The notes beneath the pieces are model-generated. The model saw only the letters and a list, made by a program, of their open reading frames with translations, was not told where the DNA came from and searched no databases. From IMG/VR virus record IMGVR_UViG_3300036943_000490, positions 1-47,116 of that record: 47,116 bases of DNA. One strand, 5' to 3'. A program made the position numbers and the translations under genes. This stretch comes from a virus. Positions within the stretch are counted from its first letter, which is position 1, and each line of letters opens with the position of its first letter. This document shows, in pieces, positions 1,251 to 35,366 of the stretch.

Positions 1251-1276
1251 CCTTCATTCAATATTTGAACATAGGA
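1251..1276 (+). promoter_or_regulatory. Intercistronic palindromic motif (IPM) copy
   Basis: CCTTCATTCAATATTTGAACATAGGA, ends 7 nt before ATG 1284. Confidence 0.6.
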
Positions 1277-1283
1277 AATTATT

Positions 1284-2279
1284 ATGGGCGGATCAGGTGG
1301 TGGAAGTTCTTCTGGTGAGATAGACTATCCAGATTATATGAAGCATAGGCATCAATACTGGCTTGATAGGATGTCTACACTTATAGCTAATACAACATCT
1401 GGAGCGAGCCCTTTTGCTACAGCGACTGCTTATAATCCAGATTCTGCAGTAACTTATATGTTATCAGCTGCTTGTAATTTTGAAACGGCTGTTGATGATA
1501 TGGAAGCTACTACTGATTTTGCTAATGCTATTACTAATGCTATAACTCGTTTTGATGCCTTAGCTGAAACTCCTACATGGGTTGATCCAAGTCCTGCTGC
1601 TGCAGATGAAATATCTGCTGATGTTGATGCTTTTGAGTCTGTACAAGATGATCATATTGAGAATGATATTCTTCCTAGATTTAAAGCTGGAATGAGAGAT
1701 ATTAATGCTGTTCAGACATCTTCATTTGTTTTAGGACAGGCTTATATAGAAGCTTCTGGAAGTAGGGATGTAGCTAAATATCAAGGTGATCTTAGAACAA
1801 AAGCATACTTACTCAAAGATGAGCTTATGGCTAAGTCTGCTATTGCAGAAAATTCTTTTAATTTGCAACTTGAAACAGATCGTCGAAGAAATATTACTGA
1901 GATGAATCATGATATTCTTCAGTATATGATTCAGAAGATTCAATTCTCTCAAGCTGTGGCTCATTATCTTATTGAAGTTCGTCGTATGCAGATTGTTGCT
2001 AAGAAAGAACAGTCTGATGTTAATCTTCTTCTAGATGAACAAGATGCAAAATGGGATCTTGAGGCATATCAGTATGGAGCTAATATGTTAGGATCAATTG
2101 GTGGTGGAACAGTTACTAATAGTATGTCAAAGGCTAGTAAGATTTCATCAGCTTTAGGAGGAGCTTTATCTGGGGCAGCGGCTGGGACTATGGTTGGATC
2201 TGCTGTTCCTGGAATAGGAACTGCAGTTGGAGCAGCTGTAGGTGGTATTGTTGGATTAGCTGGAGGACTTTTATCTTAA
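1284..2279 (+). CDS. Virion-block protein with Gly-rich N-terminus and C-terminal glycine-zipper-like hydrophobic tail (331 aa)
   Basis: MGGSGGGSSSGE start. The C-terminus GGALSGAAAGTMVGSAVPGIGTAVGAAVGGIVGLAGGLLS is typical of membrane-inserting small-residue zippers. Role as an internal or ejection protein is inference only. Confidence 0.55.
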   Translation: MGGSGGGSSSGEIDYPDYMKHRHQYWLDRMSTLIANTTSGASPFATATAYNPDSAVTYMLSAACNFETAVDDMEATTDFANAITNAITRFDALAETPTWVDPSPAAADEISADVDAFESVQDDHIENDILPRFKAGMRDINAVQTSSFVLGQAYIEASGSRDVAKYQGDLRTKAYLLKDELMAKSAIAENSFNLQLETDRRRNITEMNHDILQYMIQKIQFSQAVAHYLIEVRRMQIVAKKEQSDVNLLLDEQDAKWDLEAYQYGANMLGSIGGGTVTNSMSKASKISSALGGALSGAAAGTMVGSAVPGIGTAVGAAVGGIVGLAGGLLS

Positions 2280-11908: not shown

Positions 11909-12042
11909 TAGTTCTCCTCATCACCAAACATTTCTTCATACCAAATTTTTAATTTTTCTCTTTTTTCTTTTCTTTCTTCTTCTGTTAAATTTTCATATTC
12001 TAATACATCGTCTATTATAATTAAATCAGGTTTATTTCCCAT
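11908..12042 (-). CDS. Small acidic ORF (44 aa) bridging polymerase and NTPase genes
   Basis: Hand translation: MGNKPDLIIIDDVLEYENLTEEERKEKREKLKIWYEEMFGDEEN. Its TAA overlaps ATG 11908 (TAATG) and its start overlaps the polymerase stop. SD spacing is about 10 nt, hence low confidence. Confidence 0.35.
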   Translation of the reverse strand: MGNKPDLIIIDDVLEYENLTEEERKEKREKLKIWYEEMFGDEEN

Positions 12043-14644
12043 AACTCATAATCTCCTTATGAGCTTTCTTTTTATCTTCTTTTGTATTAAATTCTGTTCT
12101 AAGCCATTCCCAACCTAACTCAAGAACCTTTGCAAGCTTATCTTCTTCCTCTGGCCAATCTTTCGACTCAATATCAAAGCCGACTCTTTTATTCATACAT
12201 TTACCTAAAGTAAAAGAAGCAGGCACAACAAACTCCCTACCATAATGAGTGACAAGAGGAATCTCAAGACTCGCTTTAATAAGATTAAGTTGCTTTGCCC
12301 AAGCTAGCCAACCAATCTCAAGTGGATTCTGAAATCCAATCTCATCATGGACTTGTCGTAAGATCTCTATGGATCTGAATAAGTCTTGATTATAATAGAT
12401 ATATTCTATTCCTCGCTCATTAATTATATCTCCGACACTTCCCTGAGGTATGCACGAGAAAGCTTCCTTGAAAGTATTATCATCTAATCTATTAAGGAAA
12501 ACCGTTCTTCTGCCCAAGAGATTAACCAGTGTCCTGTTGATCCTAAGACAGCGGCGGACATAAGCATGAAAGCCCCGCTTAACACCAGGATATAAAGTAT
12601 GATAAGCGTTATATATTTTCTTACCATCAGCGTTAGGTATTTCATTTTTGAGAGCAAAAGCATCTGATCCCCAATCATAGTTGAATCCATGGTTAGCTTT
12701 CTTTCCCCAGTCTCGCCAAGTATGAGTTCCATCACCCATAGGAGCAAGCTCTTTAACGTTAAAATGCTTTAAAAAATCTTCTATATACTTATCATCAAAA
12801 GGATCTACTTGCTGTGGATAAAAAGTCTCAACAATAAACAAAGCTGTCTTTTCATGTACATCTGTTCCAGTCTCAAAGACCTCAATCATATTAAGGATCT
12901 CACCAACATATGCGACAATTCTGTTTTCAGCTTGATCAAGATCAAAGGCCCCATAGGCATATCCTTCGTCTGCAAGTAGGAATTCTTGAAGCTCAGCGGG
13001 CCAATTCTGATTGTTTCCTCCTGTTCCAAATATGTTTTCAGCTGATGAAAGACGAGAATACCTTGTGCCAGATGGTTTGTAAAGACAACGATATCTGTTA
13101 TCAGAGTCGATCTTTTTGACATCAAGATATGTTGAATGTTGCTTTGTGAGACGACGTTTTTTAAGTATGAGAGTAGCTTCATCTCTAAATCCCTTTCTTG
13201 CCATACGTTTCATAGCTATATCATCGAATGTAGGAGAACATCTTCCTCCTCCACGATGAGTTTTATATGGAGTAAACTTTTTTTCATCTTTAAAATACTT
13301 AAGCATTTGAACAGAAGAACCTGCAAACTTTTCATTATATTCAGGACCGATAATATCAAGAAGATCTCTTGTTGTCTTATCTATTTCATCCTGAATATCT
13401 CTTGCTTTCTTATCCATCTTATTAACATCAACAAGAAGTCCCCTCTCCATCATATAACAACAAGGTTCTATCATAAGTCTTTGTCGTTCATATGCTTCTT
13501 GATTATTTTGATTTCTTATCATTTCTTCCTGCTTCGGAAATATCTCATCACACATAAGAGAATCAAGACAATTATAATGCCAGAATGTTTCGTATGCTCC
13601 TCCATATGTTAAGAAGTCTTTTCCATCACGCTTATAATAAGGTTGATCTGTCCACCATGATGTTAGAAAATCAAGACCAACAGGATAATCAGGCATAATA
13701 GTTTTCTGAGCTATCATAGTATCATCAGCATTTGTCATGGATATCCCATAACGACGAAGAAGAAAATGAGCATCGAAAACAAGGTTCTGACCACATTTTC
13801 TTATATCAGGACTTTGAAGAATATTAGCTATCCAAAGCCATAACTTTAATTCATCGTCGATAGTATAATAATCTCCTCTGTGATCAGCGAAAGGTATTGA
13901 CATTCCCTGACCATTAACAGCAAAGCTGATGCACGATACCTGTTTATGTGCCCTACCCATAAAAACTTCAATGTCATAAGATATCCGTTCACCTTTCATT
14001 CCTTCGTTATAACAATATATGAGAAAGTCAAGAGCTTGTGAAAAAGACGGTTTTATAAAAACACTTCGTTCGGTGGGAATATAAAGTCCTTCAACAATAT
14101 TCCTCATTCTTTCCATATCATGAACAATAAGCTTACGATTAAGAAATTGATTCTTAGGCTTTATAACAGTAGCTGGATGAAAAGCTGGAACAATTTTCTT
14201 ATCAAAAGAAACTCCATCTATCTCACAAGGAAGAATGGAACCACGATAATTTGTGATCCCAGTTCTTCCTGTGAGAGCAAACAAAGCGATTCCACCAAAA
14301 GCCATAATGCAATCCGCTTTGATATCTGATACTTCACGTTTGAGTAGTTCGAGATAATATTTACCTTTAGGATGAATTATAGGATTTCTGAGGAGTTTAT
14401 TATTCTGATAAAGTTGAATATATTCATCAGGTGATTCATCAAAGTCCTTAAGAATATTAGATATATAACAAAAAACCCTTGGTATGTCAGCAAGATCAAG
14501 ACAACGATCAAGCTCATTACCAGCAGGACCACAGAAAAGCTGGCGACGTTTAACTTCCTCACGACCAGGCTGTTCACCGAAGATAGCAAACTTTGAGTCT
14601 TGTCTTCCAATAGGACGTATGAAGGTACGAGGCCCATCAAGCAT
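12032..14644 (-). CDS. Family A DNA polymerase with 3'-5' exonuclease domain and N-terminal family-4 UDG-like domain
   Basis: FGEQPG, FCGPAGNEL and FHPA resemble UDG family-4 motifs. YDIEV is Exo I; DLDQAENRIVA is PolA motif A; RDWGKKANHGFNYDWG is motif B; QVHDEI is motif C. Start moved to ATG 14644 (MLDGPRTF), which overlaps the upstream stop by 8 nt. Confidence 0.85.
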   Translation of the reverse strand: MLDGPRTFIRPIGRQDSKFAIFGEQPGREEVKRRQLFCGPAGNELDRCLDLADIPRVFCYISNILKDFDESPDEYIQLYQNNKLLRNPIIHPKGKYYLELLKREVSDIKADCIMAFGGIALFALTGRTGITNYRGSILPCEIDGVSFDKKIVPAFHPATVIKPKNQFLNRKLIVHDMERMRNIVEGLYIPTERSVFIKPSFSQALDFLIYCYNEGMKGERISYDIEVFMGRAHKQVSCISFAVNGQGMSIPFADHRGDYYTIDDELKLWLWIANILQSPDIRKCGQNLVFDAHFLLRRYGISMTNADDTMIAQKTIMPDYPVGLDFLTSWWTDQPYYKRDGKDFLTYGGAYETFWHYNCLDSLMCDEIFPKQEEMIRNQNNQEAYERQRLMIEPCCYMMERGLLVDVNKMDKKARDIQDEIDKTTRDLLDIIGPEYNEKFAGSSVQMLKYFKDEKKFTPYKTHRGGGRCSPTFDDIAMKRMARKGFRDEATLILKKRRLTKQHSTYLDVKKIDSDNRYRCLYKPSGTRYSRLSSAENIFGTGGNNQNWPAELQEFLLADEGYAYGAFDLDQAENRIVAYVGEILNMIEVFETGTDVHEKTALFIVETFYPQQVDPFDDKYIEDFLKHFNVKELAPMGDGTHTWRDWGKKANHGFNYDWGSDAFALKNEIPNADGKKIYNAYHTLYPGVKRGFHAYVRRCLRINRTLVNLLGRRTVFLNRLDDNTFKEAFSCIPQGSVGDIINERGIEYIYYNQDLFRSIEILRQVHDEIGFQNPLEIGWLAWAKQLNLIKASLEIPLVTHYGREFVVPASFTLGKCMNKRVGFDIESKDWPEEEDKLAKVLELGWEWLRTEFNTKEDKKKAHKEIMSYGK

Positions 14645-14945
14645 TTTCAAAATCCTTAATATCAGATAAATCGCTTTGACTATCATTTGTAGTCAAAAAT
14701 GAAAATAAATACATAGCAAAATGAGCTATTTTTACTGCATCTCTGACTCCATCAGCTCTACCTCTAGAAGATTTACCTATTCTATCTACATATGCTTCTA
14801 ACTTAGCTTGTATTTTTATATTATTATATTTTTTTATTGTCTTATCAGGAAAGTCTCCATATTGAGGCACTACATAATTTTTTATATGTTTTTCTACTAT
14901 AGCTGAAAACTGTCTCCATTGAGTTAATTTATCTTTTGCTATCAT
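14637..14945 (-). CDS. Hypothetical protein (102 aa)
   Basis: ORF track; IPM plus GGAG SD upstream. Confidence 0.6.
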   Translation of the reverse strand: MIAKDKLTQWRQFSAIVEKHIKNYVVPQYGDFPDKTIKKYNNIKIQAKLEAYVDRIGKSSRGRADGVRDAVKIAHFAMYLFSFLTTNDSQSDLSDIKDFENA

Positions 14946-15164: not shown

Positions 15165-16562
15165 TTAAATCTCCTTGTGAACTTTTATTATATATCCATC
15201 CCTATATTCTTTCGTAAGATCAAATCCAATAGGTATCATTGATAACTTAGCTGCCTCTAAAAGCGTCCTTCCTGATCCAGCAAAAGGTACAAGAATCCTA
15301 TCATTCGTATGACCGAATGTTTGAAGAACATCTGTAATAAGCTCTTTCGGTCTTTCTGTCGGATGATACTTATGTGAATGAGGAACTGGTCGATGTCCGA
15401 AGACATTACTATGACCAGGTTTGTTTAAGGTCGGAGAGCCTTTTCTTGCATAAAAGAAAAACTCATATGAATTAGCAAGACAATATTCAGGATTATTTGT
15501 CTGACCATAGGCACCTTCTACGAATCCATCGTTTGCTTCATCAACACCTTTAACCCAAAGACCAGGAAGTCTCGAACATTTAAAACCAGCTTCGGTTATC
15601 CACTGATACATAGATTCAAACCAAGGATCAGGCCCAAACCAGACAATCATCCAAGAATTATCTTTAAGAACCCTATAACATTCTCGAAAGACATTCTTCA
15701 TAAAGTCAGGATATTTCTCAGGATCGATCTCATTATATCCTGTATAGTTATATCCTTTCTTTTGTTTTTCAAGTTCAATAGAATAAGGCGGATCGATCTC
15801 ACAAAAATTCATAGTATGATCGCCGATCTTTTTAACTCCGACGAAGAAATCTTCAACCTTATAAGCATCGACAAGAACTCGCTTTCTATCTTCTCCAGTT
15901 TTAAGAACCCTCTCAGCTTTCTTAGCATCAGTCAGTTGCTTAGCAGCCTTATGAGCACCTTTCATAGCTTTCTTAACATCAGCCTGAGTCTTAAACTGTC
16001 CCCAATCAACCTGAGGAAGATCTTCCATCATTTTTGCAAGCTTTAGATCCTCAGATATCTTACCTTTTGACTTACCCATAAGATCTGCAGTGTCAGCCTG
16101 TGACCAGCCAGGAGCATCTGGATTGGTAGAGTGTTTCTTTCCATGGATAGATATCTGAAGTTCATGAATACGTCTTTCGAGCTGTATCTTTTCCTGCCAT
16201 GTTAGATCTTTCCGATACATATTTTCAGAATATTCTAGGACTCTAAGTTGATGTTCTGTAAGTTCAGGATATACTCTGATTGTTATTTCTAAGTTTGAAG
16301 AAGGATCTTTTTGTTTAAGCTTCTCATCTAAGAATGTCAAAGCACGAAACCTTCTGCCTCCAGCTACCAAGGTATAAGGCTTCTCTGATCCTTCAGGATT
16401 TTTACAAACTGAAACTGGTTGGATAAGACCTTCTTTGGTTATGTTCTGTGCGAGGGCTGCTACATCACCATAATCCTTTCGAAAGCGATCCCCAACTTCG
16501 ATCTCATAAAGATAAGCATTTTTAAACTCAAGATTGGCTACGCGTATAGGAAAATTTCCCAT
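15165..16562 (-). CDS. ParB-like N-terminal domain fused to DNA methyltransferase (DPPY class, N6-adenine or N4-cytosine)
   Basis: ParB/Srx box LVAGGRRFRAL near the N-terminus. C-terminal half has FCEIDPPYS (motif IV) followed by VPFAGSGRTLLEAAKL (motif I FxGxG), the beta-class order. Confidence 0.8.
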   Translation of the reverse strand: MGNFPIRVANLEFKNAYLYEIEVGDRFRKDYGDVAALAQNITKEGLIQPVSVCKNPEGSEKPYTLVAGGRRFRALTFLDEKLKQKDPSSNLEITIRVYPELTEHQLRVLEYSENMYRKDLTWQEKIQLERRIHELQISIHGKKHSTNPDAPGWSQADTADLMGKSKGKISEDLKLAKMMEDLPQVDWGQFKTQADVKKAMKGAHKAAKQLTDAKKAERVLKTGEDRKRVLVDAYKVEDFFVGVKKIGDHTMNFCEIDPPYSIELEKQKKGYNYTGYNEIDPEKYPDFMKNVFRECYRVLKDNSWMIVWFGPDPWFESMYQWITEAGFKCSRLPGLWVKGVDEANDGFVEGAYGQTNNPEYCLANSYEFFFYARKGSPTLNKPGHSNVFGHRPVPHSHKYHPTERPKELITDVLQTFGHTNDRILVPFAGSGRTLLEAAKLSMIPIGFDLTKEYRDGYIIKVHKEI

Positions 16563-17145: not shown

Positions 17146-17221
17146 TGGTGGTCATGGAAGGATTCGAACCTTCGACCTGTCGCTTATAAGGCAACTGCTC
17201 TAACCGCTGAGCTACATGACC
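17146..17221 (-). tRNA. tRNA-Ile, anticodon UAU, CCA encoded
   Basis: Hand-folded from the reverse complement: GGTCATG-TA-GCTC-AGCGGTTA-GAGC-A-GTTGC-CTTATAA-GCGAC-AGGTC-GAAGG-TTCGAAT-CCTTC-CATGACC-A-CCA. This is a 76-nt cloverleaf with all stems paired (one G-U); anticodon positions 34-36 are TAT. Confidence 0.85.
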
Positions 17222-22860: not shown

Positions 22861-22885
22861 TGGAGATTTTTGGTTATTTTGATAT

Positions 22886-22909
22886 CTTTGTTCAATGATT
22901 GAATGAAGG
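22886..22909 (-). promoter_or_regulatory. IPM copy without adjacent start codon
   Basis: Sense strand CCTTCATTCAATCATTGAACAAAG, directly after the stop of 22910..23272 and 25 nt upstream of the -35 box. Confidence 0.55.
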
Positions 22910-23272
22910 TTATTGTTTCAGTCCTTTATTATATTTTTCTATCTTACAGGTATCAATACGATTCTGTAATCGTTTTATAAGCTTTTCACGCATTTCTTTT
23001 GACATAGAATCTATAAAAGATTCTGATAGGATTTTCTTATTTTCTTTCTCTATATTTTTATAATGATGAGAATTTATTTTAGTTATTCCTACTGTCTGTT
23101 CAAATATCTTACGATCAAGAGAGTAAAACTTCTGCCGCATCGTTATATGTTCGTGCTTGTTTTTTGTAAGGATCATGTGAATTTTAAAGATTTTGTCTTG
23201 TTTGTCTTTCAGCTTTTCTCTCAGCTTCTCTCGCTTGAGCAACATTTCCTGGAGATCTGTGTTTTGAGTCAT
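22910..23272 (-). CDS. Hypothetical K/E-rich protein (up to 120 aa; start uncertain)
   Basis: ORF track. Overlaps the upstream ORF by 89 nt; an internal ATG at 23245 has AGGAAA upstream. Confidence 0.45.
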   Translation of the reverse strand: MTQNTDLQEMLLKREKLREKLKDKQDKIFKIHMILTKNKHEHITMRQKFYSLDRKIFEQTVGITKINSHHYKNIEKENKKILSESFIDSMSKEMREKLIKRLQNRIDTCKIEKYNKGLKQ

Positions 23273-23929: not shown

Positions 23930-23934
23930 TGTTT

Positions 23935-23958
23935 CTCCGTTCGATTAATGAATGAAGG
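23935..23958 (-). promoter_or_regulatory. IPM copy
   Basis: Sense strand CCTTCATTCATTAATCGAACGGAG, 5 nt before ATG 23929. Confidence 0.55.
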
Positions 23959-24288
23959 TTATATCTTCCCTTCCTTAAGATATTTATAAAACGTTGACAT
24001 GGGCATTGTTGAACGTCTGAATCTGACTGCTGAGAAATGTAAGATTATACCATCAATCTTAATATTAACATCTGCCCATGTTTGTCTGTTTTTGTTAGGT
24101 GAATAACCTTCTTGACGACGAAAGAACGAGTTTACTAATATTCCTTTCTTATTTATATAAGATTTTTTCTTTGTTGACTTTGGATCGACCGGATGAATAT
24201 CTTCGATGATGATTTCTGTTCCTGGAGGGCAGCGGAAAGGATTCTTGATAGGAACAGGCGATGATAAAGATGGATAGTATTGAGTCAT
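23959..24288 (-). CDS. Hypothetical basic protein (109 aa)
   Basis: ORF track. Confidence 0.5.
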   Translation of the reverse strand: MTQYYPSLSSPVPIKNPFRCPPGTEIIIEDIHPVDPKSTKKKSYINKKGILVNSFFRRQEGYSPNKNRQTWADVNIKIDGIILHFSAVRFRRSTMPMSTFYKYLKEGKI

Positions 24289-26208: not shown

Positions 26209-26449
26209 CTTCTATTCTCCTTAATAGTTCAGGTACTACAATGTAATAGAATGCCGCATCGTATGTAGGAGTGGAGAACTCATACTTCCACGGCTCTTTC
26301 ATTTGGGAAAGATAATAACGGGCAGTAGCCACGAGATTCTTATCCGACAGATTTCGAAACTTGAAAAGATCACGGGCGTAATGCTCATCGGCATCTGCCA
26401 TCTTTTGCTGAGTCTCTGGCTTGAGTAGTTTTCGGAAATCAATCGCCAT
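26132..26449 (-). CDS. Hypothetical protein (105 aa)
   Basis: ORF track; its 3' end overlaps the next gene by 77 nt. Confidence 0.5.
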   Translation of the reverse strand: MAIDFRKLLKPETQQKMADADEHYARDLFKFRNLSDKNLVATARYYLSQMKEPWKYEFSTPTYDAAFYYIVVPELLRRIEDGLIRLGDNEVSGMLPKHRVPKQSR

Positions 26450-26524
26450 TGAATATCAATCCTTGTTGATAGTTATAGGTTCGGATTATTTCAGAGTCTT
26501 CCGGTCTTGATCTTATGTTCAACG

Positions 26525-26548
26525 CTTTGTTCATATATCGAATGAAGG
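26525..26548 (-). promoter_or_regulatory. IPM copy without adjacent start codon
   Basis: Sense strand CCTTCATTCGATATATGAACAAAG, just after the stop of 26553..26738. The next ATG is 75 nt downstream. Confidence 0.5.
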
Positions 26549-26552
26549 ATCA

Positions 26553-26738
26553 TCAAAAAATCTCAAAATCATTCCCTTCTTCCATCCATTCATAACTTTC
26601 ATAATCTTTCGGCAGGTAACCGTTATAACATTTGTCTTCCCAAAAGTTTCTCATAACCATATCTGTCACCCATCCTAACGATTTTATACCTTCCCATCCT
26701 TCGTAATTCCAAACCTGCTCAACAAAGTATATCCACAT
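26553..26738 (-). CDS. Hypothetical Trp/Tyr-rich small protein (61 aa)
   Basis: ORF track; IPM plus AGGAGG upstream. Confidence 0.55.
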   Translation of the reverse strand: MWIYFVEQVWNYEGWEGIKSLGWVTDMVMRNFWEDKCYNGYLPKDYESYEWMEEGNDFEIF

Positions 26739-26747
26739 AATATTCCT

Positions 26748-26771
26748 CCTTTGTTTAATTATTGAACATAG
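26748..26771 (-). promoter_or_regulatory. IPM copy
   Basis: Sense strand CTATGTTCAATAATTAAACAAAGG, 9 nt before ATG 26738. Confidence 0.6.
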
Positions 26772-26890
26772 ATTGTTTATAATCCCTATGATTTATAACC
26801 TCATCATAACATACCTTTCAATAACTATCAACGCATAATTCAAAACCTTTCCAACCCTCCATTCAATCATCCAACAATGTCAGCTTGCTT

Positions 26891-27089
26891 CCCCGTTTCT
26901 CGCTTCCCACCCCCCATGCTATCATCCATCCAATTGGTATGTTAGCTTAGTGTCTTAGTGTTCTTAGATTCTAATCTCCTATATATATATACTTATATAT
27001 ATACTATATATATAACTTATTAAACCAACACCCCTACAGACTGTCATTGGATGGGTGGGCAACACGGGGGTGGGTAGCAAGAAACGAGG
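26891..27089. repeat. Large imperfect palindrome with (TA)n core; candidate replication origin or other cis element
   Basis: The left arm is ccccgtttctcgcttcccaccccccatgctatcatccatccaattgg (26891-26937). The right arm is cattggatgggtgggcaacacgggggtgggtagcaagaaacgagg (27045-27089), its imperfect reverse complement. The centre contains tatatatatatacttatatatatactatatatata. No ORF lies in the 400-bp gap. Confidence 0.6.
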
Positions 27090-27138
27090 TTACGAGGTTA
27101 CGAAATTACAATTGGTTATGATTGAACGGAGCGGAATA

Positions 27139-27360
27139 TCAGCCTTTGTTACCGATTAGTAAGATGATATCGGTGTCTGAAAGGCCTTGAGCGATGAGAC
27201 TTTTATAAGCATTATCGACCGCTATCATCTTCCGCTGATAATCGTTGAGACTTTTGTTAAGGCTCGCCGCGTCAGCTTCAAGCTTATATGCCTTCTGATG
27301 CAGATCAAAGGCCTTGTCGAGCAATTCTTTAATATTCTGTTGAACTTTAACAGTATCCAT
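27139..27360 (-). CDS. Hypothetical coiled-coil-like protein (73 aa)
   Basis: ORF track; IPM plus AGGAGG upstream. Preferred over alternate-frame ORF 27225..27413. Confidence 0.55.
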   Translation of the reverse strand: MDTVKVQQNIKELLDKAFDLHQKAYKLEADAASLNKSLNDYQRKMIAVDNAYKSLIAQGLSDTDIILLIGNKG

Positions 27361-27368
27361 TCTTTCCT

Positions 27369-27392
27369 CCTATGTTTGATTATTGAACGAAG
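27369..27392 (-). promoter_or_regulatory. IPM copy
   Basis: Sense strand CTTCGTTCAATAATCAAACATAGG, 8 nt before ATG 27360. Confidence 0.6.
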
Positions 27393-27415
27393 CGACGATG
27401 ATCCTGACCTCATTT

Positions 27416-27642
27416 CCAGGCTGGATATTTATTAATCTACATTTCCATAGAAATCATATTCTTTAATACATTTATTTTCTTCATCTATACACATTTTAAA
27501 TACTGCACCACAAGCACACCAAAATATTGCTCGTGTATCTGCTACTAATGATACATTATCTAATCTACCACATCTAGGGCATATCATTAAATTGACTATC
27601 CTTTTAGGCTTCATGTTATCCATCCTTTCAATCCCAGCCTGG
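27416..27642. repeat. Inverted repeat pair C (arms 27416-27426 and 27631-27642) bracketing CDS 27432..27623
   Basis: The reverse complement of ccaggctggat is atccagcctgg, against atcccagcctgg at 27631 (one extra c). Confidence 0.45.
27432..27623 (-). CDS. Small zinc-ribbon-like protein (63 aa)
   Basis: ICPRCGR ... WCACG. Confidence 0.55.
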   Translation of the reverse strand: MDNMKPKRIVNLMICPRCGRLDNVSLVADTRAIFWCACGAVFKMCIDEENKCIKEYDFYGNVD

Positions 27643-28065
27643 TTAGAATGGCCTAGACGATTATTATTATCTAATCCGTTACCTTTGCCATAAGTTTTTC
27701 CAACAGCGCCTTTGCCACGTTTGGGTCCAACTCATCAACGTTCATACTCGCGGCCATGCTGTTCGAATCCTTCGGCGCTGCAGAAACCATCTGAGCAAAC
27801 GTAATACCATTAGCTAGTTCTTCCGCCTGCTCTTTTGTCTTGATACGTTTTCGCAAGATAATAATCCCTGCATTCAACGCTTGTTTAACAACTTCCCCGA
27901 TATCCGCTCCATCCATATTAACTACAACCTGATATCCCCTGCAATCCGGCGATCCGTTGAGAAACTGTGCCGACCTAATCTCCGTTCCTACCAATCTATT
28001 ATCCTTAATCATCGTAGCCATGATATATCTCCCTTCGATATCTAGGCCACTCTAATCAGGCCAGG
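27633..28065. repeat. Inverted repeat pair A (arms 27633-27656 and 28042-28065) bracketing CDS 27671..28021
   Basis: cccagcctggttagaatggcctag versus the reverse complement of ctaggccactctaatcaggccagg (cctggcctgattagagtggcctag): 19 of 23 aligned positions identical. Confidence 0.65.
27671..28021 (-). CDS. Hypothetical protein (116 aa), higher-GC early gene
   Basis: ORF track; GAAGGGAG upstream. Confidence 0.6.
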   Translation of the reverse strand: MATMIKDNRLVGTEIRSAQFLNGSPDCRGYQVVVNMDGADIGEVVKQALNAGIIILRKRIKTKEQAEELANGITFAQMVSAAPKDSNSMAASMNVDELDPNVAKALLEKLMAKVTD

Positions 28066-28071
28066 ATCATT

Positions 28072-28375
28072 CTCGGATAGTTAATTCATGCGGGCTGGGT
28101 TGATGTTATCTATATCTAACACTCCAATTATTATCATTATTACTAGGACTATAAACGCCCCGCGTTTCATAAAAATTTCTACCACACCATTCATCAAACA
28201 TAATAGCTGTTTTTTCATTATCAAAATGAGCCCAGGCCCAATTGATTCCGCCTGATAGTGTTCCACATAATGATTTAGCCATTTGTCCTGCTGATACGGT
28301 TCTACGCATTATTCCATTAACTATTTCAATCATAATCCACCATCCAATCTAGCCCGCATCAACTAACTACCCGAG
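28072..28375. repeat. Inverted repeat pair B (arms 28072-28098 and 28349-28375) bracketing CDS 28106..28333
   Basis: ctcggatagttaattcatgcgggctgg versus the reverse complement of ctagcccgcatcaactaactacccgag (ctcgggtagttagttgatgcgggctag): 23 of 27 identical. Confidence 0.7.
28106..28333 (-). CDS. Hypothetical Trp-rich protein (75 aa), first early gene
   Basis: Fills the space between the pair-B arms exactly. Preferred over alternate-frame ORF 28081..28266, which runs into the repeat arm. Confidence 0.5.
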   Translation of the reverse strand: MIEIVNGIMRRTVSAGQMAKSLCGTLSGGINWAWAHFDNEKTAIMFDEWCGRNFYETRGVYSPSNNDNNWSVRYR

Positions 28376-28508
28376 ATCCAACAATTCTAGGTCTTAACGC
28401 CCTTTCGGTCACTCACATTAGATCCGGTGGACTAGTAGTGGAGCCTATCGGTCTGCCTAGAACCGTTTCAAATTGTCAAAGAACATTCAATTTCGATTTG
28501 TTGAAACC

Positions 28509-28536
28509 ATCATATCACACCTACTCAAAATGTCAA
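28509..28536 (-). promoter_or_regulatory. Candidate early promoter (TTGACA, 16 nt spacer, TATGAT)
   Basis: Sense strand TTGACAttttgagtaggtgtgaTATGATgg, pointing into the minus-strand early genes. Confidence 0.5.
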
Positions 28537-28692
28537 ATCAAAGACCATCACCAAAAATCCATCATCATCAAATATCCTAAAACAAAAGGGGGTAGATGTG
28601 TTAAATCTCGCGCGAACAGGGACACTAACAAATTCTCCAAATTTTTATATGTCAACAAATGTCACCACGCTGCGAGGAATTGAATTGTTATT

Positions 28693-28717
28693 CTTCGTTC
28701 GATTTTTAAACATAGGA
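28693..28717 (+). promoter_or_regulatory. IPM copy
   Basis: CTTCGTTCGATTTTTAAACATAGGA, immediately before the TTG/GTG starts at 28719-28725. Confidence 0.55.
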
Positions 28718-28718
28718 C

Positions 28719-29372
28719 TTGGTGGTGGAGATTATTAAGGAGACTGATTTTATATGTTGGGAGATTGCTTGGAGATATGTTATGATGATTTATGATGATA
28801 AAGAGCGGAGGTTTATGATGGCAGAAGCTTGTTTGACAGTCGGAGGCTTTGCGATTCCAAGGAAGGATTATTGGAATCCTGATAGAGAGAGTCGTAGAAA
28901 AAGACCTCCTGAGATGAGAAAATCCTTTCAAATAGCAGAGGTTCATGAGACTCATCATGAAATAGCGAGGAGACTTGTCCTCGGGCAAAAGCCAAAAGAG
29001 ATAGCAAAGGATCTTAATATTGGTTATGGGACTGTTCTCAATGTTAGAAGATCTCCGATCATTCAAGAGCAGATGAAAATTATGGGAGGTGCGAGAGATG
29101 CTGAGACTCATGATATCGCTAAGCAGATAAGAGATCTTACTCCAAAATGTGTTAAGGTCCTTGAAGAAATTATTGACGATGATGAAGTTGGTAAGTCTCT
29201 TAAGATGAAGGCAAGTCTTGCGGTTCTTGATCGAGCAGGTCATGCTGTTCCTAAGAATGTAAACGTTAAAGGTATGCATGCTGTCATATCAGCTCAAGAT
29301 CTTATCGCTATCAAAGAACGTGCCGCTGAGATAGGTATGATAGCAGATGAGGATGATATAATCGATGTCTGA
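28719..29372 (+). CDS. HTH DNA-binding protein, putative small terminase subunit (start codon uncertain)
   Basis: Sigma-70 region-4/LuxR-like HTH QKPKEIAKDLNIGYGTVLNVRR. Lies directly upstream of, and overlapping, TerL. Non-ATG start (TTG 28719 or GTG 28725), or ATG 28780. Confidence 0.45.
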   Translation: MVVEIIKETDFICWEIAWRYVMMIYDDKERRFMMAEACLTVGGFAIPRKDYWNPDRESRRKRPPEMRKSFQIAEVHETHHEIARRLVLGQKPKEIAKDLNIGYGTVLNVRRSPIIQEQMKIMGGARDAETHDIAKQIRDLTPKCVKVLEEIIDDDEVGKSLKMKASLAVLDRAGHAVPKNVNVKGMHAVISAQDLIAIKERAAEIGMIADEDDIIDV

Positions 29373-32323: not shown

Positions 32324-32538
32324 TGAAAAAGTTTATCATAGTTATAATTTTGTTATTACTTTTATCATCGATAGTTTATGCAAAGATAGGTCTTGATCTT
32401 AGTCTAAGTCTTGGTTCGGGTTCTGGAACAGTTAGTGGTCCTGTAACTGGTGCACATTATCTTCTCATCGATGGATCAAGCCATTATCTTATCATAGATG
32501 GTAGTTCTCACAAATTAAGAATTGATGGAGCAATCTAA
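32323..32538 (+). CDS. Signal-peptide mini-protein (71 aa) with triple H-x-L-x-IDGSS repeat
   Basis: MKKFIIVIILLLLLSSIVYA/K, then AHYLLIDGSSHYLIIDGSSHKLRIDG. TAATG overlaps at both ends. Confidence 0.55.
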   Translation: MKKFIIVIILLLLLSSIVYAKIGLDLSLSLGSGSGTVSGPVTGAHYLLIDGSSHYLIIDGSSHKLRIDGAI

Positions 32539-34505
32539 TGAAACGCTTCGTTTATTTATTGAACATAGTTTTTATTTTTATTTCTCTCAATGTTTTTGCA
32601 GCTGATTATGATGGAGATAAGCAGATTGGATCATTAGATGCTCATGGAGGTTCGCTAGCAACAACTTCGAAAGCGCTAGTTCAAGATCCTGTTGATACTG
32701 ATATTATAACTACAATGACTCTTCAGGAAATAGTAACTACAGTTCTTGGTGCTGATTATGATACTGGAACTGAGCTTACGAATCTTTTTAATTCTAAAAT
32801 TGGCGCTGCTGATGTTCCGACAAATGAGACTGATCCAATTACAGGTACGATAACTGGCATAGTTAAAGCAAATGGCGCTGGAACAATTTCGGCAGCTGTT
32901 GCGGGGACTGATTATTTAACGCCGACTGGGGATGGTGCCGGATTATCAGGAGTCGTTACTTCTGAGAGTGATCCGAATGCTCTTTTAACTGTTGACACTG
33001 ATAATGTAAAAGATACTCATATTGATTGGGGTTCCGGCGCAGGACAAGTTAATGCTGATGACATTGCGGACGGGTCTACCAATGCCATTCCCACATTAAC
33101 CCAAGAGACCAATTGGGATACAATGGTCGGTTCTGGCGCACAGGCTGTAGGCTCTGGAGATGCTCCAACATTTGCGGCCACGAACATCAGTGAGCCGTCA
33201 AATAGTAAAGGTGTCTTGCCAACCACATCGGGGATTACTGATGGATACGTCCCAAAAAAACAGACCGATGGATCAGTGGCATGGGCAGTGGATTCGACTG
33301 GTGCTGGTGGAGATCAACTTGTTGACTTAGTAGCTACATCTCCATTGTTGGTAAACGAAACAACTAATGTCAACGATGCCCTCCCAGGATCAGATGCGGA
33401 TATCACTTTTTCAATGCCTGCGGCGACGAACAGTGCTGGTGGTTATATGACCGCCGCGCATGTTACTGCCCTTGAAGCCATCGACACTGAAGCGGAGCTT
33501 GAAGCGTTGCTTGAGGTAGCTGATCTTCAAGGGGATTTGGCCGCAACGAGAGTGACTTTTTCTCCGACAGGCACAATATCATCCACTACGGCACAGGCGG
33601 CGATTGCTGAGGTTGCTACGGAGGCGGCACAGACATCCGGTTTTACGATGGGTGCTGCGGGAATACCTTTCATCGTAAATTCTCAAAATATTACGATGGA
33701 AGGCTCTCCGACAGCGGCCAGGGTTCTTAATGTCGGCGATTTTGATATGGAGATTCCGGCGGCTACGGCGGTCAATGCAAGCGGGTTGATTCTTGCTGCC
33801 GGCATCGCTGATGGTGATCATGGAGCGTTCACTTATTCGAGCGGTATCGCTTCTTTGGATGCGAACACGGTTGACTCAGATCAGTATGTCGATGGTTCTA
33901 TTGATCCAGAACACGTCGCTTCGGGTGCATGGGACTTTGGAACATCAGCAGAGGCTGATACGATTACCGAGGGGGGAGTTGGAGTTCCTAACGTCGATGA
34001 GCTTGATGCTTCATCTGAACTAGCTGCCCTCATAGATGATGAGACCGGATCAGGATCTATTGTATTCTCTACGTCTCCGACGTTGGTTACTCCTATTCTC
34101 GGCATTCCCACCAGTGGGACGTTGACGAATTGTACCGGCCTACCTCCTGCTGCCGGTATCACCATAGCCCTGCCATCCTATTCGGCCGCCCAAACCCTTA
34201 CCTGGACGACAAACGGCAGACGAACGAATCTTTTTACTAATTCGACAACGGTAGAATTCACGGTTTGGGATTGCGAAACCGCAAATATCGGGCAGTCGTT
34301 CTCCGTGTGGGCGTCCGACGCCTCTCTTGAGGGCGTACCAGCCAGCGGAGATCATTTCGTTTTGTTCGATGGGACGGCATTGACTGCCAACTATGAGATT
34401 GACGTTCCTGCCGATGCGCGAGTAAAATTCGTTTGCACGGCAGATGATACATGGTCGGTGCATTCCGAAACAGATACAACCACAGATGGAGGGACGGCAG
34501 ACTGA
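32538..34505 (+). CDS. Signal-peptide fibre-like protein (655 aa), AT-rich N-terminus and GC-rich distal part
   Basis: MKRFVYLLNIVFIFISLNVFA/AD. Motifs DPVDTDIITTMTLQEIV and GTDYLTPTGDGAGLSGV. Composition switches near 32.85 kb. Confidence 0.6.
   Translation: MKRFVYLLNIVFIFISLNVFAADYDGDKQIGSLDAHGGSLATTSKALVQDPVDTDIITTMTLQEIVTTVLGADYDTGTELTNLFNSKIGAADVPTNETDPITGTITGIVKANGAGTISAAVAGTDYLTPTGDGAGLSGVVTSESDPNALLTVDTDNVKDTHIDWGSGAGQVNADDIADGSTNAIPTLTQETNWDTMVGSGAQAVGSGDAPTFAATNISEPSNSKGVLPTTSGITDGYVPKKQTDGSVAWAVDSTGAGGDQLVDLVATSPLLVNETTNVNDALPGSDADITFSMPAATNSAGGYMTAAHVTALEAIDTEAELEALLEVADLQGDLAATRVTFSPTGTISSTTAQAAIAEVATEAAQTSGFTMGAAGIPFIVNSQNITMEGSPTAARVLNVGDFDMEIPAATAVNASGLILAAGIADGDHGAFTYSSGIASLDANTVDSDQYVDGSIDPEHVASGAWDFGTSAEADTITEGGVGVPNVDELDASSELAALIDDETGSGSIVFSTSPTLVTPILGIPTSGTLTNCTGLPPAAGITIALPSYSAAQTLTWTTNGRRTNLFTNSTTVEFTVWDCETANIGQSFSVWASDASLEGVPASGDHFVLFDGTALTANYEIDVPADARVKFVCTADDTWSVHSETDTTTDGGTAD
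32546..32568 (+). promoter_or_regulatory. IPM-like sequence inside a coding region
   Basis: CTTCGTTTATTTATTGAACATAG encodes part of the signal peptide (RFVYLLNIV) of the 655-aa ORF. Confidence 0.4.
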
Positions 34506-34750
34506 TGAAAAAAGCAATTATGATTTTAGCGTTTTTGGGTCTGCCGTTTGTTGCAATTGCCGGTGAAATAAGTTTCGATGACCTCATCAAAACCGAGGCC
34601 CGACTCGAAATCCTGCAACGCCAATATGAGCAAAAATACAACGAGATCACAATTAATCTGGCCGTAGTAAAAGCTAAGATCGCCAAAGCAAAAATGGAGA
34701 AAAAGGACGATGAAAAGCCTGTTGAAAATCCTGCTAATACTGGCCGTTAG
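34505..34750 (+). CDS. Signal-peptide coiled-coil protein (81 aa)
   Basis: Start set to ATG 34505 (TGATG overlap with the upstream stop): MKKAIMILAFLGLPFVAIA/GE. Confidence 0.55.
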   Translation: MKKAIMILAFLGLPFVAIAGEISFDDLIKTEARLEILQRQYEQKYNEITINLAVVKAKIAKAKMEKKDDEKPVENPANTGR

Positions 34751-35366
34751 CCTTTGCCTGTGCGGTCCTGCATGGCCGTTTGACGATGATGAGATTTTGC
34801 AGCCGGTTGCGAGTGGTAGTCCGTCCTACTTACTCAACGAGTCATTTACCGGCACGGGAACGCCAACCGGTTGGTCAACATCAGGTACGGTTACGTTTAA
34901 TGATAATGCTACCCTGAGTAGTGATTATGCAATGTTAATATCACCATCTTTTACGGAGCAGTCAACTGCATATATAAAATTTGAATACACATCATCTGCG
35001 GTAGCATACGACTCGATCGCAATATTCTTTTATCTCCGTAACTCAACGACAACAATTGCAGAGATTAGAATCCAAAGCAACTGGCTTCCTATTATATATC
35101 ACGGAACTACTACCCAATATGGTAGTACGGGAGACGAATTTACAGCCGCAACAACACACTATGTGTGGATAGATTACGTTGCGTCATCTGGGTCAGATGA
35201 CGGTACATTTGATCTGTACATTAATACTTCTGATTCTAAACCAGGGGTTGCAACACTGAGTTTAACTGGCGGAACATCAACCGATGGTGTTGATAACATT
35301 CGGTTTTCTCGTCGTTTCCAAGATAATATTTTTGATAACGCTAAGGTAAGTGGCGATGAATTTTAA
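34710..35366 (+). CDS. Signal-peptide protein (218 aa), beta-rich
   Basis: MKSLLKILLILAVSLCLCGPAWP. The mature part is Ser/Thr/Gly-rich, suggesting a jelly-roll or lectin-like fold (inference only). Confidence 0.55.
   Translation: MKSLLKILLILAVSLCLCGPAWPFDDDEILQPVASGSPSYLLNESFTGTGTPTGWSTSGTVTFNDNATLSSDYAMLISPSFTEQSTAYIKFEYTSSAVAYDSIAIFFYLRNSTTTIAEIRIQSNWLPIIYHGTTTQYGSTGDEFTAATTHYVWIDYVASSGSDDGTFDLYINTSDSKPGVATLSLTGGTSTDGVDNIRFSRRFQDNIFDNAKVSGDEF

What the first reader, a model, noticed from the sequence alone, without database searches (positions are those of the whole stretch)
27398..28375. Nested long-range inverted repeats bracket each of three consecutive early genes
The first three early cistrons are each enclosed by a pair of inverted repeats:
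- Pair B, 27 nt, 23/27 identical: 28072-28098 with 28349-28375, around the 75-aa ORF.
- Pair A, about 24 nt, 19/23 identical: 27633-27656 with 28042-28065, around the 116-aa ORF.
- Pair C, 11-12 nt: 27416-27426 with 27631-27642, around the 63-aa zinc-ribbon ORF.
- Pair D, 12 nt, 11/12 identical: 27398-27409 with 28059-28070, enclosing the last two together.

Many of the mismatches are transitions, some of which would be G-U pairs in RNA. In a transcript these would form long stems that loop out whole cistrons, as the RNase III processing stems do around 16S and 23S rRNA. At DNA level they would mark gene cassettes. I do not know of a described phage system with per-gene bracketing stems of this type. 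The genes themselves are orphan and higher in GC.
Basis: seen in the sequence. Interest (0 to 1): 0.66.

Follow-up and report, generated by a model that had tools for sequence, protein, structure and literature searches.

The report
RNA helices clamp phage early genes
In this phage and its uncultivated relatives, each of the first genes expressed after infection sits inside its own long RNA helix formed by the sequences just before and just after the gene; evolution has preserved the pairing while the sequences and even the enclosed genes changed, so each gene behaves as a self-contained, probably RNase III-processed, messenger module.

Summary
The inverted repeats are real and at the stated coordinates. 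Pairs B (27/32) and A (23/27) exceed genome-wide chance. Pairs C and D are at chance level alone but appear in the predicted RNA fold. The genes lie on the minus strand, downstream of a conserved sigma-70-type promoter (28536-28509). Among 61 genes in the window, only these early cistrons have strongly pairing flanks.

Relatives decide the interpretation. Every locus carrying the ORF116-type gene (24 examined) has a helix closing that cistron, with unrelated arm sequences. In six closer relatives the 28-bp helix is 91% paired, with 13 pairs changed on both sides. Mismatches are G-U on the sense strand 52 times against 8 on the antisense strand. So selection acts on the transcript, not on duplex DNA.

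The ORF75 unit is an arm-to-arm insertion that relatives lack. The gene in the next bracket has been replaced while its helix was kept.

Best reading: cistron-closing RNA helices, most likely RNase III substrates that release end-clamped mini-mRNAs. Cleavage itself is inferred, not shown. This is a new variant of known long-range mRNA duplexes and rRNA-type processing stalks.

The parts
28509..28536 (-). Immediate-early promoter, sigma-70 type with extended -10 (TTGACA-16-TGtTATGAT); transcription start about 28500
   Evidence: Matches 11 of 12 consensus positions, with TG before the -10. Invariant spacing and near-invariant sequence in five close relatives (alignment A4). Equivalent promoters lie upstream of the bracketed gene in L059, L068, L036 and L203.
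28468..28484 (-). Conserved leader box GTTCTTTGACAATTTGA in the 5' untranslated leader; function unknown
   Evidence: Conserved in all six close loci. Recognisable in distant relatives, where it partly forms the 5' arm (L041, L056, L059, L014, L036).
28345..28376 (-). 5' arm of helix B (RNA sense UCUCGGGUAGUUAGUUGAUGCGGGCUAGAUUG); ends 11 nt before the ORF75 start codon, just upstream of its Shine-Dalgarno
28106..28333 (-). ORF75, a 75-aa orphan; first immediate-early cistron; lies in the loop of helix B
   Evidence: Its only hit among 5.8 billion clusters is itself. The whole unit is absent from five relatives.
28071..28102 (-). 3' arm of helix B; begins 3 nt after the ORF75 stop codon
28041..28067 (-). 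5' arm of helix A. Its outer part, extending to 28070, can alternatively pair as the 5' strand of helix D (28059-28070). The arm ends 19 nt before the ORF116 start codon
   Evidence: Homologous arms with compensatory changes occur in L081-L085.
27671..28021 (-). ORF116, second cistron; conserved small protein of unknown function, with no Pfam, PHROG or PDB match
   Evidence: Only a weak profile link to the syntenic ~120-aa family of distant relatives (hhalign 43%).
27631..27657 (-). 3' arm of helix A; begins 13 nt after the ORF116 stop codon. Its outer part (27631-27642) alternatively forms the 5' strand of helix C
27432..27623 (-). ORF63, third cistron; small Cys-rich (zinc-ribbon-like) protein; lies in the loop of helix C
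   Evidence: A 34%-identical homologue occupies the same bracket position in L081.
27398..27426 (-). Composite 3' arm after ORF63. 27416-27426 pairs with 27631-27642 (helix C). 27398-27409 pairs with 28059-28070 (helix D, closing ORF116 plus ORF63)
   Evidence: both present in MFE and centroid. Each is at chance level alone. It corresponds in position to the strong 24-29-nt second bracket of L081, L082, L084 and L085.
27374..27388 (.). First copy of the near-palindromic motif GTTYAATNATYRAAC, marking the end of the bracketed immediate-early block. Not part of the helices
   Evidence: About 14 sites in the window against 0.34 expected. The same motif sits upstream of many genes in relatives.

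Best explanation
The inverted repeats are the two strands of long RNA helices in the immediate-early transcript. That transcript is made on the minus strand from the host-type promoter at 28536-28509.

Anatomy. Each helix pairs the sequence just upstream of a gene's Shine-Dalgarno with the sequence just past its stop codon. Each complete cistron (ORF75, ORF116, ORF63) therefore sits in the loop of its own closing helix. In the window the second and third brackets share strands, so they can form either a full 27-bp helix A or a three-way junction (D outside, inner A and C inside).

Shown here:
- The pairing is under selection at the level of the sense-strand transcript.
- It is specific to the immediate-early cistrons.
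- It is conserved across a large family of uncultivated phages while the arm sequences and the enclosed genes turn over.

Inferred:
- Helices of 17-37 bp are natural substrates of host RNase III. The most likely mechanism is a staggered double cut in each helix that removes the leader, spacers or terminator.
- The cut releases each cistron as a short mRNA whose 5' and 3' ends stay base-paired, as in the stalks that release 16S and 23S rRNA.
- This sets the lifetime and output of each early message independently of its neighbours.
- A by-product is modularity. A gene that carries its own closing helix can be inserted, lost or swapped without disturbing its neighbours.

My confidence that these are selected RNA closing helices is about 0.85-0.9. 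My confidence that RNase III cleavage is how they act is about 0.5-0.6. Whether cleavage stabilises or shortens the life of the message is open. The overall figure of 0.6 is for the whole statement, including the RNase III step.
For: 1. Fold. MFE and centroid structures of RNA 28385->27395 contain all four helices; z = -4.9 against shuffles.

2. Specificity. ORF75 and ORF116 are extreme outliers among 61 genes for pairing between upstream and downstream flanks.

3. Family-wide conservation of the architecture.
- 80 TerL-related IMG/VR loci hold 52 strong long-range inverted repeats against a null mean of 3.4.
- All 19 loci of the first set (the window plus 18 IMG/VR loci) that carry the syntenic ~120-aa gene have a flanking repeat. 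It lies 0-22 nt past the stop and about 4-45 nt before the start. It is individually significant in about 11 of them.
- With bulges allowed, the core helices are 17-32 bp.

4. Covariation.
- ORF116 helix: six sequences, 28 pairs, 90.9% paired, 13 pairs with changes on both sides, 0/500 shuffles as high. Sliding the partner by 1-3 columns gives 26-46% paired.
- Second bracket: 95% paired, 17 of 27 pairs changed on both sides.

5. Strand asymmetry.
- In 31 brackets, G-U-compatible mismatches number 49 on the sense strand against 8 on the antisense strand (binomial p = 3e-8).
- The sense duplex is the more stable one in 22 cases against 1.
- Loop-only hairpins in the same regions show 22:18; Fisher p = 0.001.
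- L203, retrieved through its promoter alone, adds 3:0.
- 5' arms are 65% G+U against 41% for 3' arms (p = 6e-5).

6. The Shine-Dalgarno and the start codon lie inside the loop, not in the helix.

7. In L059, L068 and L036 the order is promoter, 5' arm, gene, 3' arm, intrinsic terminator.

8. Modularity. The ORF75 unit is an arm-to-arm insertion. Unrelated genes sit inside homologous second brackets.

9. Precedent. RNase III cuts long-range intramolecular mRNA duplexes in B. subtilis (PMC11780869). In E. coli the paired cuts lie 16-1080 nt apart (PMC6212723).
Against: - There are no RNA data. Cleavage, and even formation of the helices in vivo while ribosomes translate the enclosed cistron, is inferred.
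- The host is unknown, so the presence and specificity of its RNase III cannot be checked.
- Helix B, around ORF75, has no relatives and shows no strand bias of its own (2:2). It is supported only by its length, its position and the fold.
- Helices C and D are at chance level individually.
- Many loci are related to one another, so mismatch counts and covariation cells are not fully independent.
- The arms were chosen as best inverted repeats, which inflates the percentage paired. It does not bias G-U against A-C.
- G-T wobbles also stabilise single-stranded DNA, so a sense-strand ssDNA structure is not formally excluded.
- In distant relatives the gene is monocistronic with its own terminator. 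Separating cistrons cannot be the only role there.
- Homology between the window's ORF116 clade and the distant ~120-aa family is only suggestive (hhalign 43% and 28%).
Confidence: 0.6

Rival explanations
1. The helices form in RNA and are selected, but they act without RNase III cleavage. Possibilities: 5'-3' UTR communication that tunes translation or decay (a closed loop that favours re-initiation, or shielding from RNase E and exonucleases); folding insulators that keep each cistron's ribosome-binding site independent of its neighbours; or a binding platform for a protein such as the ORF116 product.
For: - The evidence for RNA-level selection is the same as for the best explanation.
- The helix is also present where the gene is monocistronic and already ends in a terminator hairpin, so cistron separation is not required there.
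- 5'-3' UTR pairing that controls translation is documented for icaR (PMC3868564).
- The ORF116-type gene is the constant partner of the helix across the family.
Against: - Near-perfect duplexes of 20-37 bp are hard to keep intact in a cell that has RNase III.
- The Shine-Dalgarno is not sequestered, unlike in icaR.
- Unrelated genes (ORF75, the second-bracket genes, the 52-aa ORF of L068) have helices with unrelated sequences. This argues against one sequence-specific binding protein.
Confidence: 0.25
2. The repeats are DNA-level features. They would be terminal inverted repeats of small mobile cassettes (like MPMEs, MITEs or mobile insertion cassettes), or sites for inversion or recombination. 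Any RNA pairing would be incidental.
For: - The A unit is 437 bp with terminal inverted repeats around a ~116-aa ORF. That superficially resembles the 439-bp MPME1 (PMC3029335).
- The ORF75 unit is a clean arm-to-arm insertion.
- Gene content turns over inside brackets.
Against: - G-U-compatible mismatches favour the sense strand 49:8, and 5' and 3' arm composition is polar. Duplex DNA does not predict either.
- Each arm has a single partner in the genome and no target-site duplication.
- Arm sequences differ between brackets, so no single transposase could recognise them.
- The ORF116-type unit is syntenic and has diverged along with the phage backbone. It is not a set of near-identical copies at varied sites.
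- ORF116 has no tblastn match in 50,697 phage records, which include the mycobacteriophages.
- No recombinase was seen among the annotated neighbours, although that check was not exhaustive.
Confidence: 0.07
3. The pairs are chance matches, or a by-product of a repeated intergenic motif.
For: - Pairs C and D are at chance level alone.
- Some apparent inverted repeats in this phage family are indeed just copies of a near-palindromic motif upstream of genes. Examples are 27368-27392 / 28693-28717 and the pairs around plus-strand genes in the IMG/VR loci.
Against: - A and B exceed nearly all genome-wide resamples.
- They are unique, non-palindromic sequences.
- They sit exactly at cistron boundaries.
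- They have covarying counterparts in relatives.
Confidence: 0.02

Closest known systems
RNase III processing stalks that flank 16S and 23S rRNA in bacterial rRNA operons
   Same: Sequences hundreds of nucleotides apart, on either side of a functional unit, pair into a long helix that loops the unit out. The helix is long enough for a double cut by RNase III.
   Different: Here the looped-out unit is a small protein-coding cistron with its ribosome-binding site. Several such units follow each other in one phage early transcript. Cleavage has not been shown.
RNase III sites in the early region of phage T7 (established knowledge, not tested here)
   Same: Early genes are transcribed by host polymerase from strong promoters as a polycistronic RNA. 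A duplex element lies at every gene boundary. The expected product is one message per gene with a structured end.
   Different: T7 sites are local hairpins between genes. Here the two strands of each helix lie 242-420 nt apart and enclose the gene, so the product would have its two ends paired to each other.
Long-range intramolecular RNase III targets in bacterial mRNAs (B. subtilis, PMC11780869; E. coli, PMC6212723)
   Same: mRNA duplexes spanning hundreds of nucleotides, cut in pairs by RNase III.
   Different: Those are scattered host targets defined by end mapping. This is a conserved, repeated, cistron-exact arrangement in a virus, defined so far only by comparative sequence evidence.
icaR mRNA of Staphylococcus aureus: 5'-3' UTR pairing (PMC3868564)
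   Same: The 3' UTR of a message pairs with its own 5' UTR and creates an RNase III substrate.
   Different: In icaR a short motif pairs with the Shine-Dalgarno and blocks initiation. Here the helix is 17-37 bp and leaves the Shine-Dalgarno and start codon free inside the loop.
PeSL cassettes of T4-type phages (PMC2839356)
   Same: Short non-coding elements flank small, fast-evolving early genes, and gene gain, loss and replacement occur at those elements.
   Different: PeSLs are direct repeats of a promoter plus a local terminator hairpin, and they act through DNA recombination. Here there is one promoter, and the flanking elements are unique inverted pairs selected for RNA pairing.
MPME ultra-small mobile elements of mycobacteriophages (PMC3029335)
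   Same: A unit of about 440 bp with terminal inverted repeats around a ~120-aa ORF inside a phage genome.
   Different: MPMEs are identical copies at varied sites with 11-bp repeats and an added 6 bp. This unit is syntenic, diverged and single-copy, has no protein similarity to them, and shows strand-specific G-U tolerance.

Membership tests
RNase III processing stalk (rRNA type) | Two distant segments of one transcript form a duplex of about 20 bp or more that encloses the unit to be released | tested here: met
   Helices of 27-32 bp in the window and 17-37 bp in relatives. They are present in the MFE and centroid folds and supported by covariation.
RNase III processing stalk (rRNA type) | Staggered double cleavage by RNase III in vivo or in vitro, dependent on rnc | not testable with these tools
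   No RNA data. Host unknown.
T7-type early-region RNase III sites | A local hairpin lying wholly within an intergenic spacer | tested here: not met
   The arms are separated by 242 nt (B) and 383 nt (A) and enclose the cistron.
icaR-type 5'-3' UTR translational control | [quoted passage not shown] | tested here: met
   and 69-71 (monocistronic relatives).
icaR-type 5'-3' UTR translational control | The pairing covers the Shine-Dalgarno and blocks initiation | tested here: not met
   The 5' arms end 11 nt (ORF75) and 19 nt (ORF116) upstream of the start codon. The Shine-Dalgarno lies between arm and start, inside the loop.
MPME (mycobacteriophage mobile element) | Near-identical ~440-bp copies at different genomic sites in closely related phages | tested here: not met
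   The position is always syntenic. Arms and protein have diverged with the backbone. The unit is single-copy in the genome. Definition taken from PMC3029335.
MPME (mycobacteriophage mobile element) | ORF homologous to the MPME-encoded protein | tested here: not met
   No tblastn match at E <= 1 in 50,697 phage records.
PeSL regulatory cassette | Repeated sigma-70 promoter plus local terminator stem-loop flanking each variable ORF as direct repeats | tested here: not met
   One promoter serves three cistrons and there are no terminators between them. The flanking elements are inverted, unique pairs.
Transposon or MITE terminal inverted repeats | Target-site duplication, and multiple copies sharing the same termini | tested here: not met
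   The flanks show no direct repeat. Each arm has exactly one partner even at 7 substitutions.
Known RNA families (Rfam 15) | Match to a curated covariance model | tested here: not met
   The only gathering-level hit in the window is a tRNA. A permissive scan of 26300-28750 gave only sub-threshold resemblance of the 26.9-27.1 kb hairpin to miRNA precursor models.

The most novel reading that the evidence does not exclude
A family of phages builds its immediate-early genes as portable 'clamped cistrons'. Each gene carries a private closing helix that does three things:
- it makes host RNase III excise the gene as an mRNA whose two ends are paired to each other;
- it insulates the gene's ribosome-binding site from whatever lies next to it;
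- it lets orphan genes be captured, swapped or dropped as ready-to-express units.

This would be a natural counterpart of the RNA insulators used in synthetic biology, and a route by which phages trial new early genes such as anti-defence or host-takeover genes.
Probability: 0.35. Interest if true: 0.72.

Novelty: new variant of a known kind. Interest (0 to 1): 0.62.

Why it matters
Phage immediate-early genes are where host takeover and counter-defence functions concentrate, and where orphan genes turn over fastest. How such genes are expressed reliably in ever-changing neighbourhoods is poorly understood.

The data show a conserved, covarying RNA architecture that wraps each such gene individually and travels with it. 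That gives a concrete mechanism that can be tested directly by end mapping in wild-type and rnc hosts, and by compensatory mutagenesis.

It extends long-range 5'-3' mRNA pairing, so far known from isolated bacterial cases and global RNase III maps, to a repeated, cistron-exact design in viruses.

It also gives a simple computational signature: outlier pairing between a gene's upstream and downstream flanks, combined with sense-strand G-U bias. Any phage or bacterial genome can be scanned for that signature.

Tried and rejected
- Close DNA relatives in GenBank phages: none (blastn). The best TerL relative there is 43% identical.
- Protein-pattern scans for ORF116 relatives in IMG/VR and in metagenome contigs found nothing. 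Homologues came only from the protein cluster search.
- A promoter-pattern scan of metagenomes returned 120 loci. Only one (L203) was a true relative, because the pattern is close to a generic strong promoter.
- Function of ORF116. No Pfam or PHROG family for it or for distant family members. The AlphaFold model reached only pLDDT 69, and Foldseek against PDB gave no match with E below 0.7.
- First pooled G-U test. Mixing all gene-bracketing pairs gave only 36:21 (p = 0.06). Pairs around plus-strand genes showed the opposite bias. Inspection showed that these are direct copies of a near-palindromic motif upstream of genes, which register falsely as inverted repeats. They were removed, and the loop-only hairpins were used as the control.
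- The idea that this motif is a promoter for a phage RNA polymerase was dropped. The 884-aa ORF is a family A DNA polymerase with a UDG domain.
- MPME/MITE, PeSL and invertible-segment readings were rejected for the reasons given in the membership table.
- The 36-nt version of pair D was rejected as an artefact of overlap with the palindromic motif.
Full report
**Setting.** The window looks like a complete phage genome of about 47 kb and about 35% G+C. A leftward block of early and replication genes lies on the minus strand from about 28.4 kb down to 8 kb. Rightward packaging and structural genes start at 28719. The three genes in the finding (ORF75 28106-28333, ORF116 27671-28021, ORF63 27432-27623) are on the minus strand. 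They are the first genes downstream of a strong sigma-70-type promoter with an extended -10 at 28536-28509.

**The observation.**
- All four pairs exist at the stated coordinates.
- B extends to 32 nt (27 matches) and A to 27 nt (23 matches).
- In a genome-wide scan against Markov resamples, B (score 22) and A (score 19) are expected 0.025 and 0.075 times per genome. D (16) and C are within chance on their own.
- I scored, for each of 61 genes, the pairing between the 70 nt upstream and the 70 nt downstream. ORF75 and ORF116 are far outside the distribution: 22 and 19 against a median of 7, and about -58 against -16 kcal/mol.
- The arms are unique. Each has one partner only, and the units have no flanking direct repeat.
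B encloses ORF75. D plus the inner half of A enclose ORF116. C encloses ORF63. The z-score is -4.9.
- The 5' arms end 11 and 19 nt before the start codons. The 3' arms begin 3 and 13 nt after the stop codons. Each loop therefore holds a whole cistron with its ribosome-binding site.

**Distant relatives.**
- GenBank phages hold no close relative. IMG/VR holds at least 80 loci whose large terminase is 43-50% identical.
- These loci contain 52 strong long-range inverted repeats against a null mean of 3.4. Most lie in the divergent early region upstream of the packaging genes.
- Many of them bracket a minus-strand ORF of about 120 aa, in the same position as ORF116.
- These ORFs form two subfamilies that are homologous to each other (hhalign 94%). 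Their link to the ORF116 clade is only suggestive (43% and 28%). I treat them as syntenic and possibly homologous.
- In all 19 loci with such a gene, the best complementary match between its two flanks lies tight against the ORF. The arm sequences are unrelated from locus to locus. With bulges allowed, the core helices are 17-32 bp.
- In L059, L068 and L036 the order is promoter, 5' arm, gene, 3' arm, intrinsic terminator. L068 has an additional bracketed 52-aa cistron in front. So the helix belongs to the individual cistron, even when the message is monocistronic.

**Closer relatives.** A protein search found homologues of ORF116 at 51-76% identity, and I fetched their contigs.
- Four of them (L081, L082, L084, L085) carry two consecutive brackets: one around the ORF116 homologue and one around the next small gene.
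- An RNAalifold consensus of six sequences recovers a 28-pair helix that closes the ORF116 cistron.
- Counting on that helix gives 90.9% of cells paired and 13 of 28 pairs with changes on both sides. None of 500 shuffles reaches this. Pairing falls to 26-46% when the partner is slid by one to three columns.
- The second bracket gives 95% paired and 17 of 27 pairs with double changes. The caveat is that those arms were selected as inverted repeats.

**RNA or DNA?** Covariation alone could also come from concerted evolution of DNA repeats, so I used strand asymmetry. A transition in a perfect helix yields a G-U on one strand's transcript and an A-C on the other's. Base composition cancels out, because the arms are complementary.
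- A first pooled test was muddied (36:21). Pairs around plus-strand genes had the opposite bias.
- Those pairs proved to be direct copies of a near-palindromic motif (AGATCGTTTAATNATTAAACAAACT) upstream of many genes. They register falsely as inverted repeats.
- With them removed, 31 cistron brackets show 49 sense against 8 antisense G-U-compatible mismatches (p = 3e-8). The sense-RNA duplex is the more stable one 22 times against 1.
- Long loop-only hairpins in the same regions show 22:18, and the two classes differ (Fisher p = 0.001).
- L203, a higher-GC relative found through its promoter alone, has the same layout and adds 3:0.
- The 5' arms are G+U-rich (65%) and the 3' arms are not (41%; p = 6e-5).

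These properties are expected for a structure selected in the sense transcript and not for duplex DNA. A sense-strand single-stranded DNA structure is not formally excluded, but I know of no process that would make one here.

**Modularity.**
- Aligning the region between the promoter and ORF116 across six loci shows that the promoter and a leader box are conserved.
- The window's ORF75 unit, from arm to arm (about 28376 to 28071), is a clean insertion absent from all five relatives. ORF75 has no homologue anywhere.
- In the second bracket, the window and L081 hold a zinc-ribbon-like ORF. L082, L084 and L085 hold unrelated small ORFs, yet the arms remain alignable.
- The window's weak pairs C and D look like a rewired remnant of this second bracket. 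Its 5' arm appears to have been lost in a deletion. The 3' arm now pairs in two segments with the outer parts of both strands of helix A.

**Mechanism.**
- Shown: selected, cistron-exact RNA closing helices in the immediate-early transcript.
- Inferred: near-perfect duplexes of 17-37 bp are substrates of RNase III. That enzyme is known to cut long-range intramolecular mRNA duplexes in B. subtilis (PMC11780869). In E. coli it cuts paired sites 16-1080 nt apart (PMC6212723).
- The most economical model is that each helix is cut on both strands. This frees a short message whose ends remain paired, as with rRNA precursors. Functionally it parallels T7 early mRNA processing, though T7 uses local hairpins.
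- The Shine-Dalgarno is left free, which argues against icaR-type occlusion (PMC3868564).
- Whether cleavage prolongs or limits the life of the message cannot be decided here. A non-cleavage role (closed-loop translation, insulation, protein binding) remains a serious rival.

**Rejected readings.**
- The MPME-like reading fails on copy number, synteny, divergence, protein similarity and strand bias.
- PeSLs are direct repeats of a promoter plus a terminator (PMC2839356). That is not what is seen here.
- Rfam has no matching family.
- I found no prior description in the searchable literature. That library is incomplete.

**Verdict.** What is new is the conserved, repeated, per-cistron design in a virus family, which is a new variant of known long-range mRNA duplexes and processing stalks. 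RNase III cleavage is the key untested step.

Noticed in passing
window 10519, 14959, 17440, 17767, 22890, 25304, 26753, 27374, 28697, 32550, 37263, 41085, 43763 (15-nt sites); relatives e.g. L044 8715-8744, L046 7552-7578, L058 612-642: The near-palindromic motif GTTYAATNATYRAAC (AGATCGTTTAATNATTAAACAAACT in relatives) occurs at about 14 sites against 0.34 expected. Almost all copies sit just upstream of the Shine-Dalgarno of genes on either strand, starting right after the bracketed immediate-early block. It is probably the operator or promoter element of a dimeric phage regulator for middle and late genes. Its copies masquerade as long-range inverted repeats.
   Followed up: partly
window 26880-27095 (arms 26891-26914 / 27066-27089); L011 2912-3128, L045 3133-3349, L070 3167-3370, L052 82-294, L059 64-260, L036 264-503, L084 1672-1841: An extended hairpin of about 200 nt (z = -5.4) with CCCACCCCC / GGGGGTGGG arms and a TATATA-rich apex. 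It has no ORF in the loop and lies between the first early block and a second promoter-like site (26831-26803). Counterparts exist in many relatives. Unlike the cistron brackets it shows no G-U strand bias (22:18). It may therefore act on DNA (replication origin?) or on both strands.
   Followed up: partly
window 28468-28484 (minus strand): The leader box GTTCTTTGACAATT, about 30 nt downstream of the early transcription start, is conserved from the closest to the most distant relatives. In some relatives it forms part of the 5' arm. It could be a protein or ribosome binding site, or a second -35 element.
   Followed up: partly
window about 28545-28690: A block between the early promoter and the divergent ORF217 start is highly conserved in six loci. 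It reads GTGGTGACATTTGGTGACAT ... GTTAGTGTCCCTGTTCGCG ... CCCCCTTTTGTTTT. It may be a regulatory region, or a small RNA or terminator.
   Followed up: no
window 27671-28021: The public gene call for this gene is an 81-aa product from an internal Met (P0004, 100% identity over 70% of the query). Homologues of 115-133 aa aligning over 94-98% of the ORF support the 116-aa reading.
   Followed up: partly
window 33000-35000: A G+C island (0.48-0.51 against about 0.35 for the genome), lying mostly within the 655-aa ORF 32538-34505, which has no Pfam match.
   Followed up: no
window 12032-14686 and 15165-16562 (minus strand): Two unusual fusions: a family A DNA polymerase with an N-terminal uracil-DNA-glycosylase-superfamily domain, and a ParB-N domain fused to an N6/N4 DNA methylase.
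   Followed up: no
window 17146-17221 (minus strand): A tRNA-Ile gene with anticodon TAT, the only RNA gene detected. It could help identify the host.
   Followed up: no
window 1252-1292 / 2275-2315 and 22885-22936 / 23934-23985: The strongest direct repeats in the genome (scores 27 and 24). They flank the 331-aa ORF 1284-2279 and a cluster of small early ORFs. Not examined.
   Followed up: no
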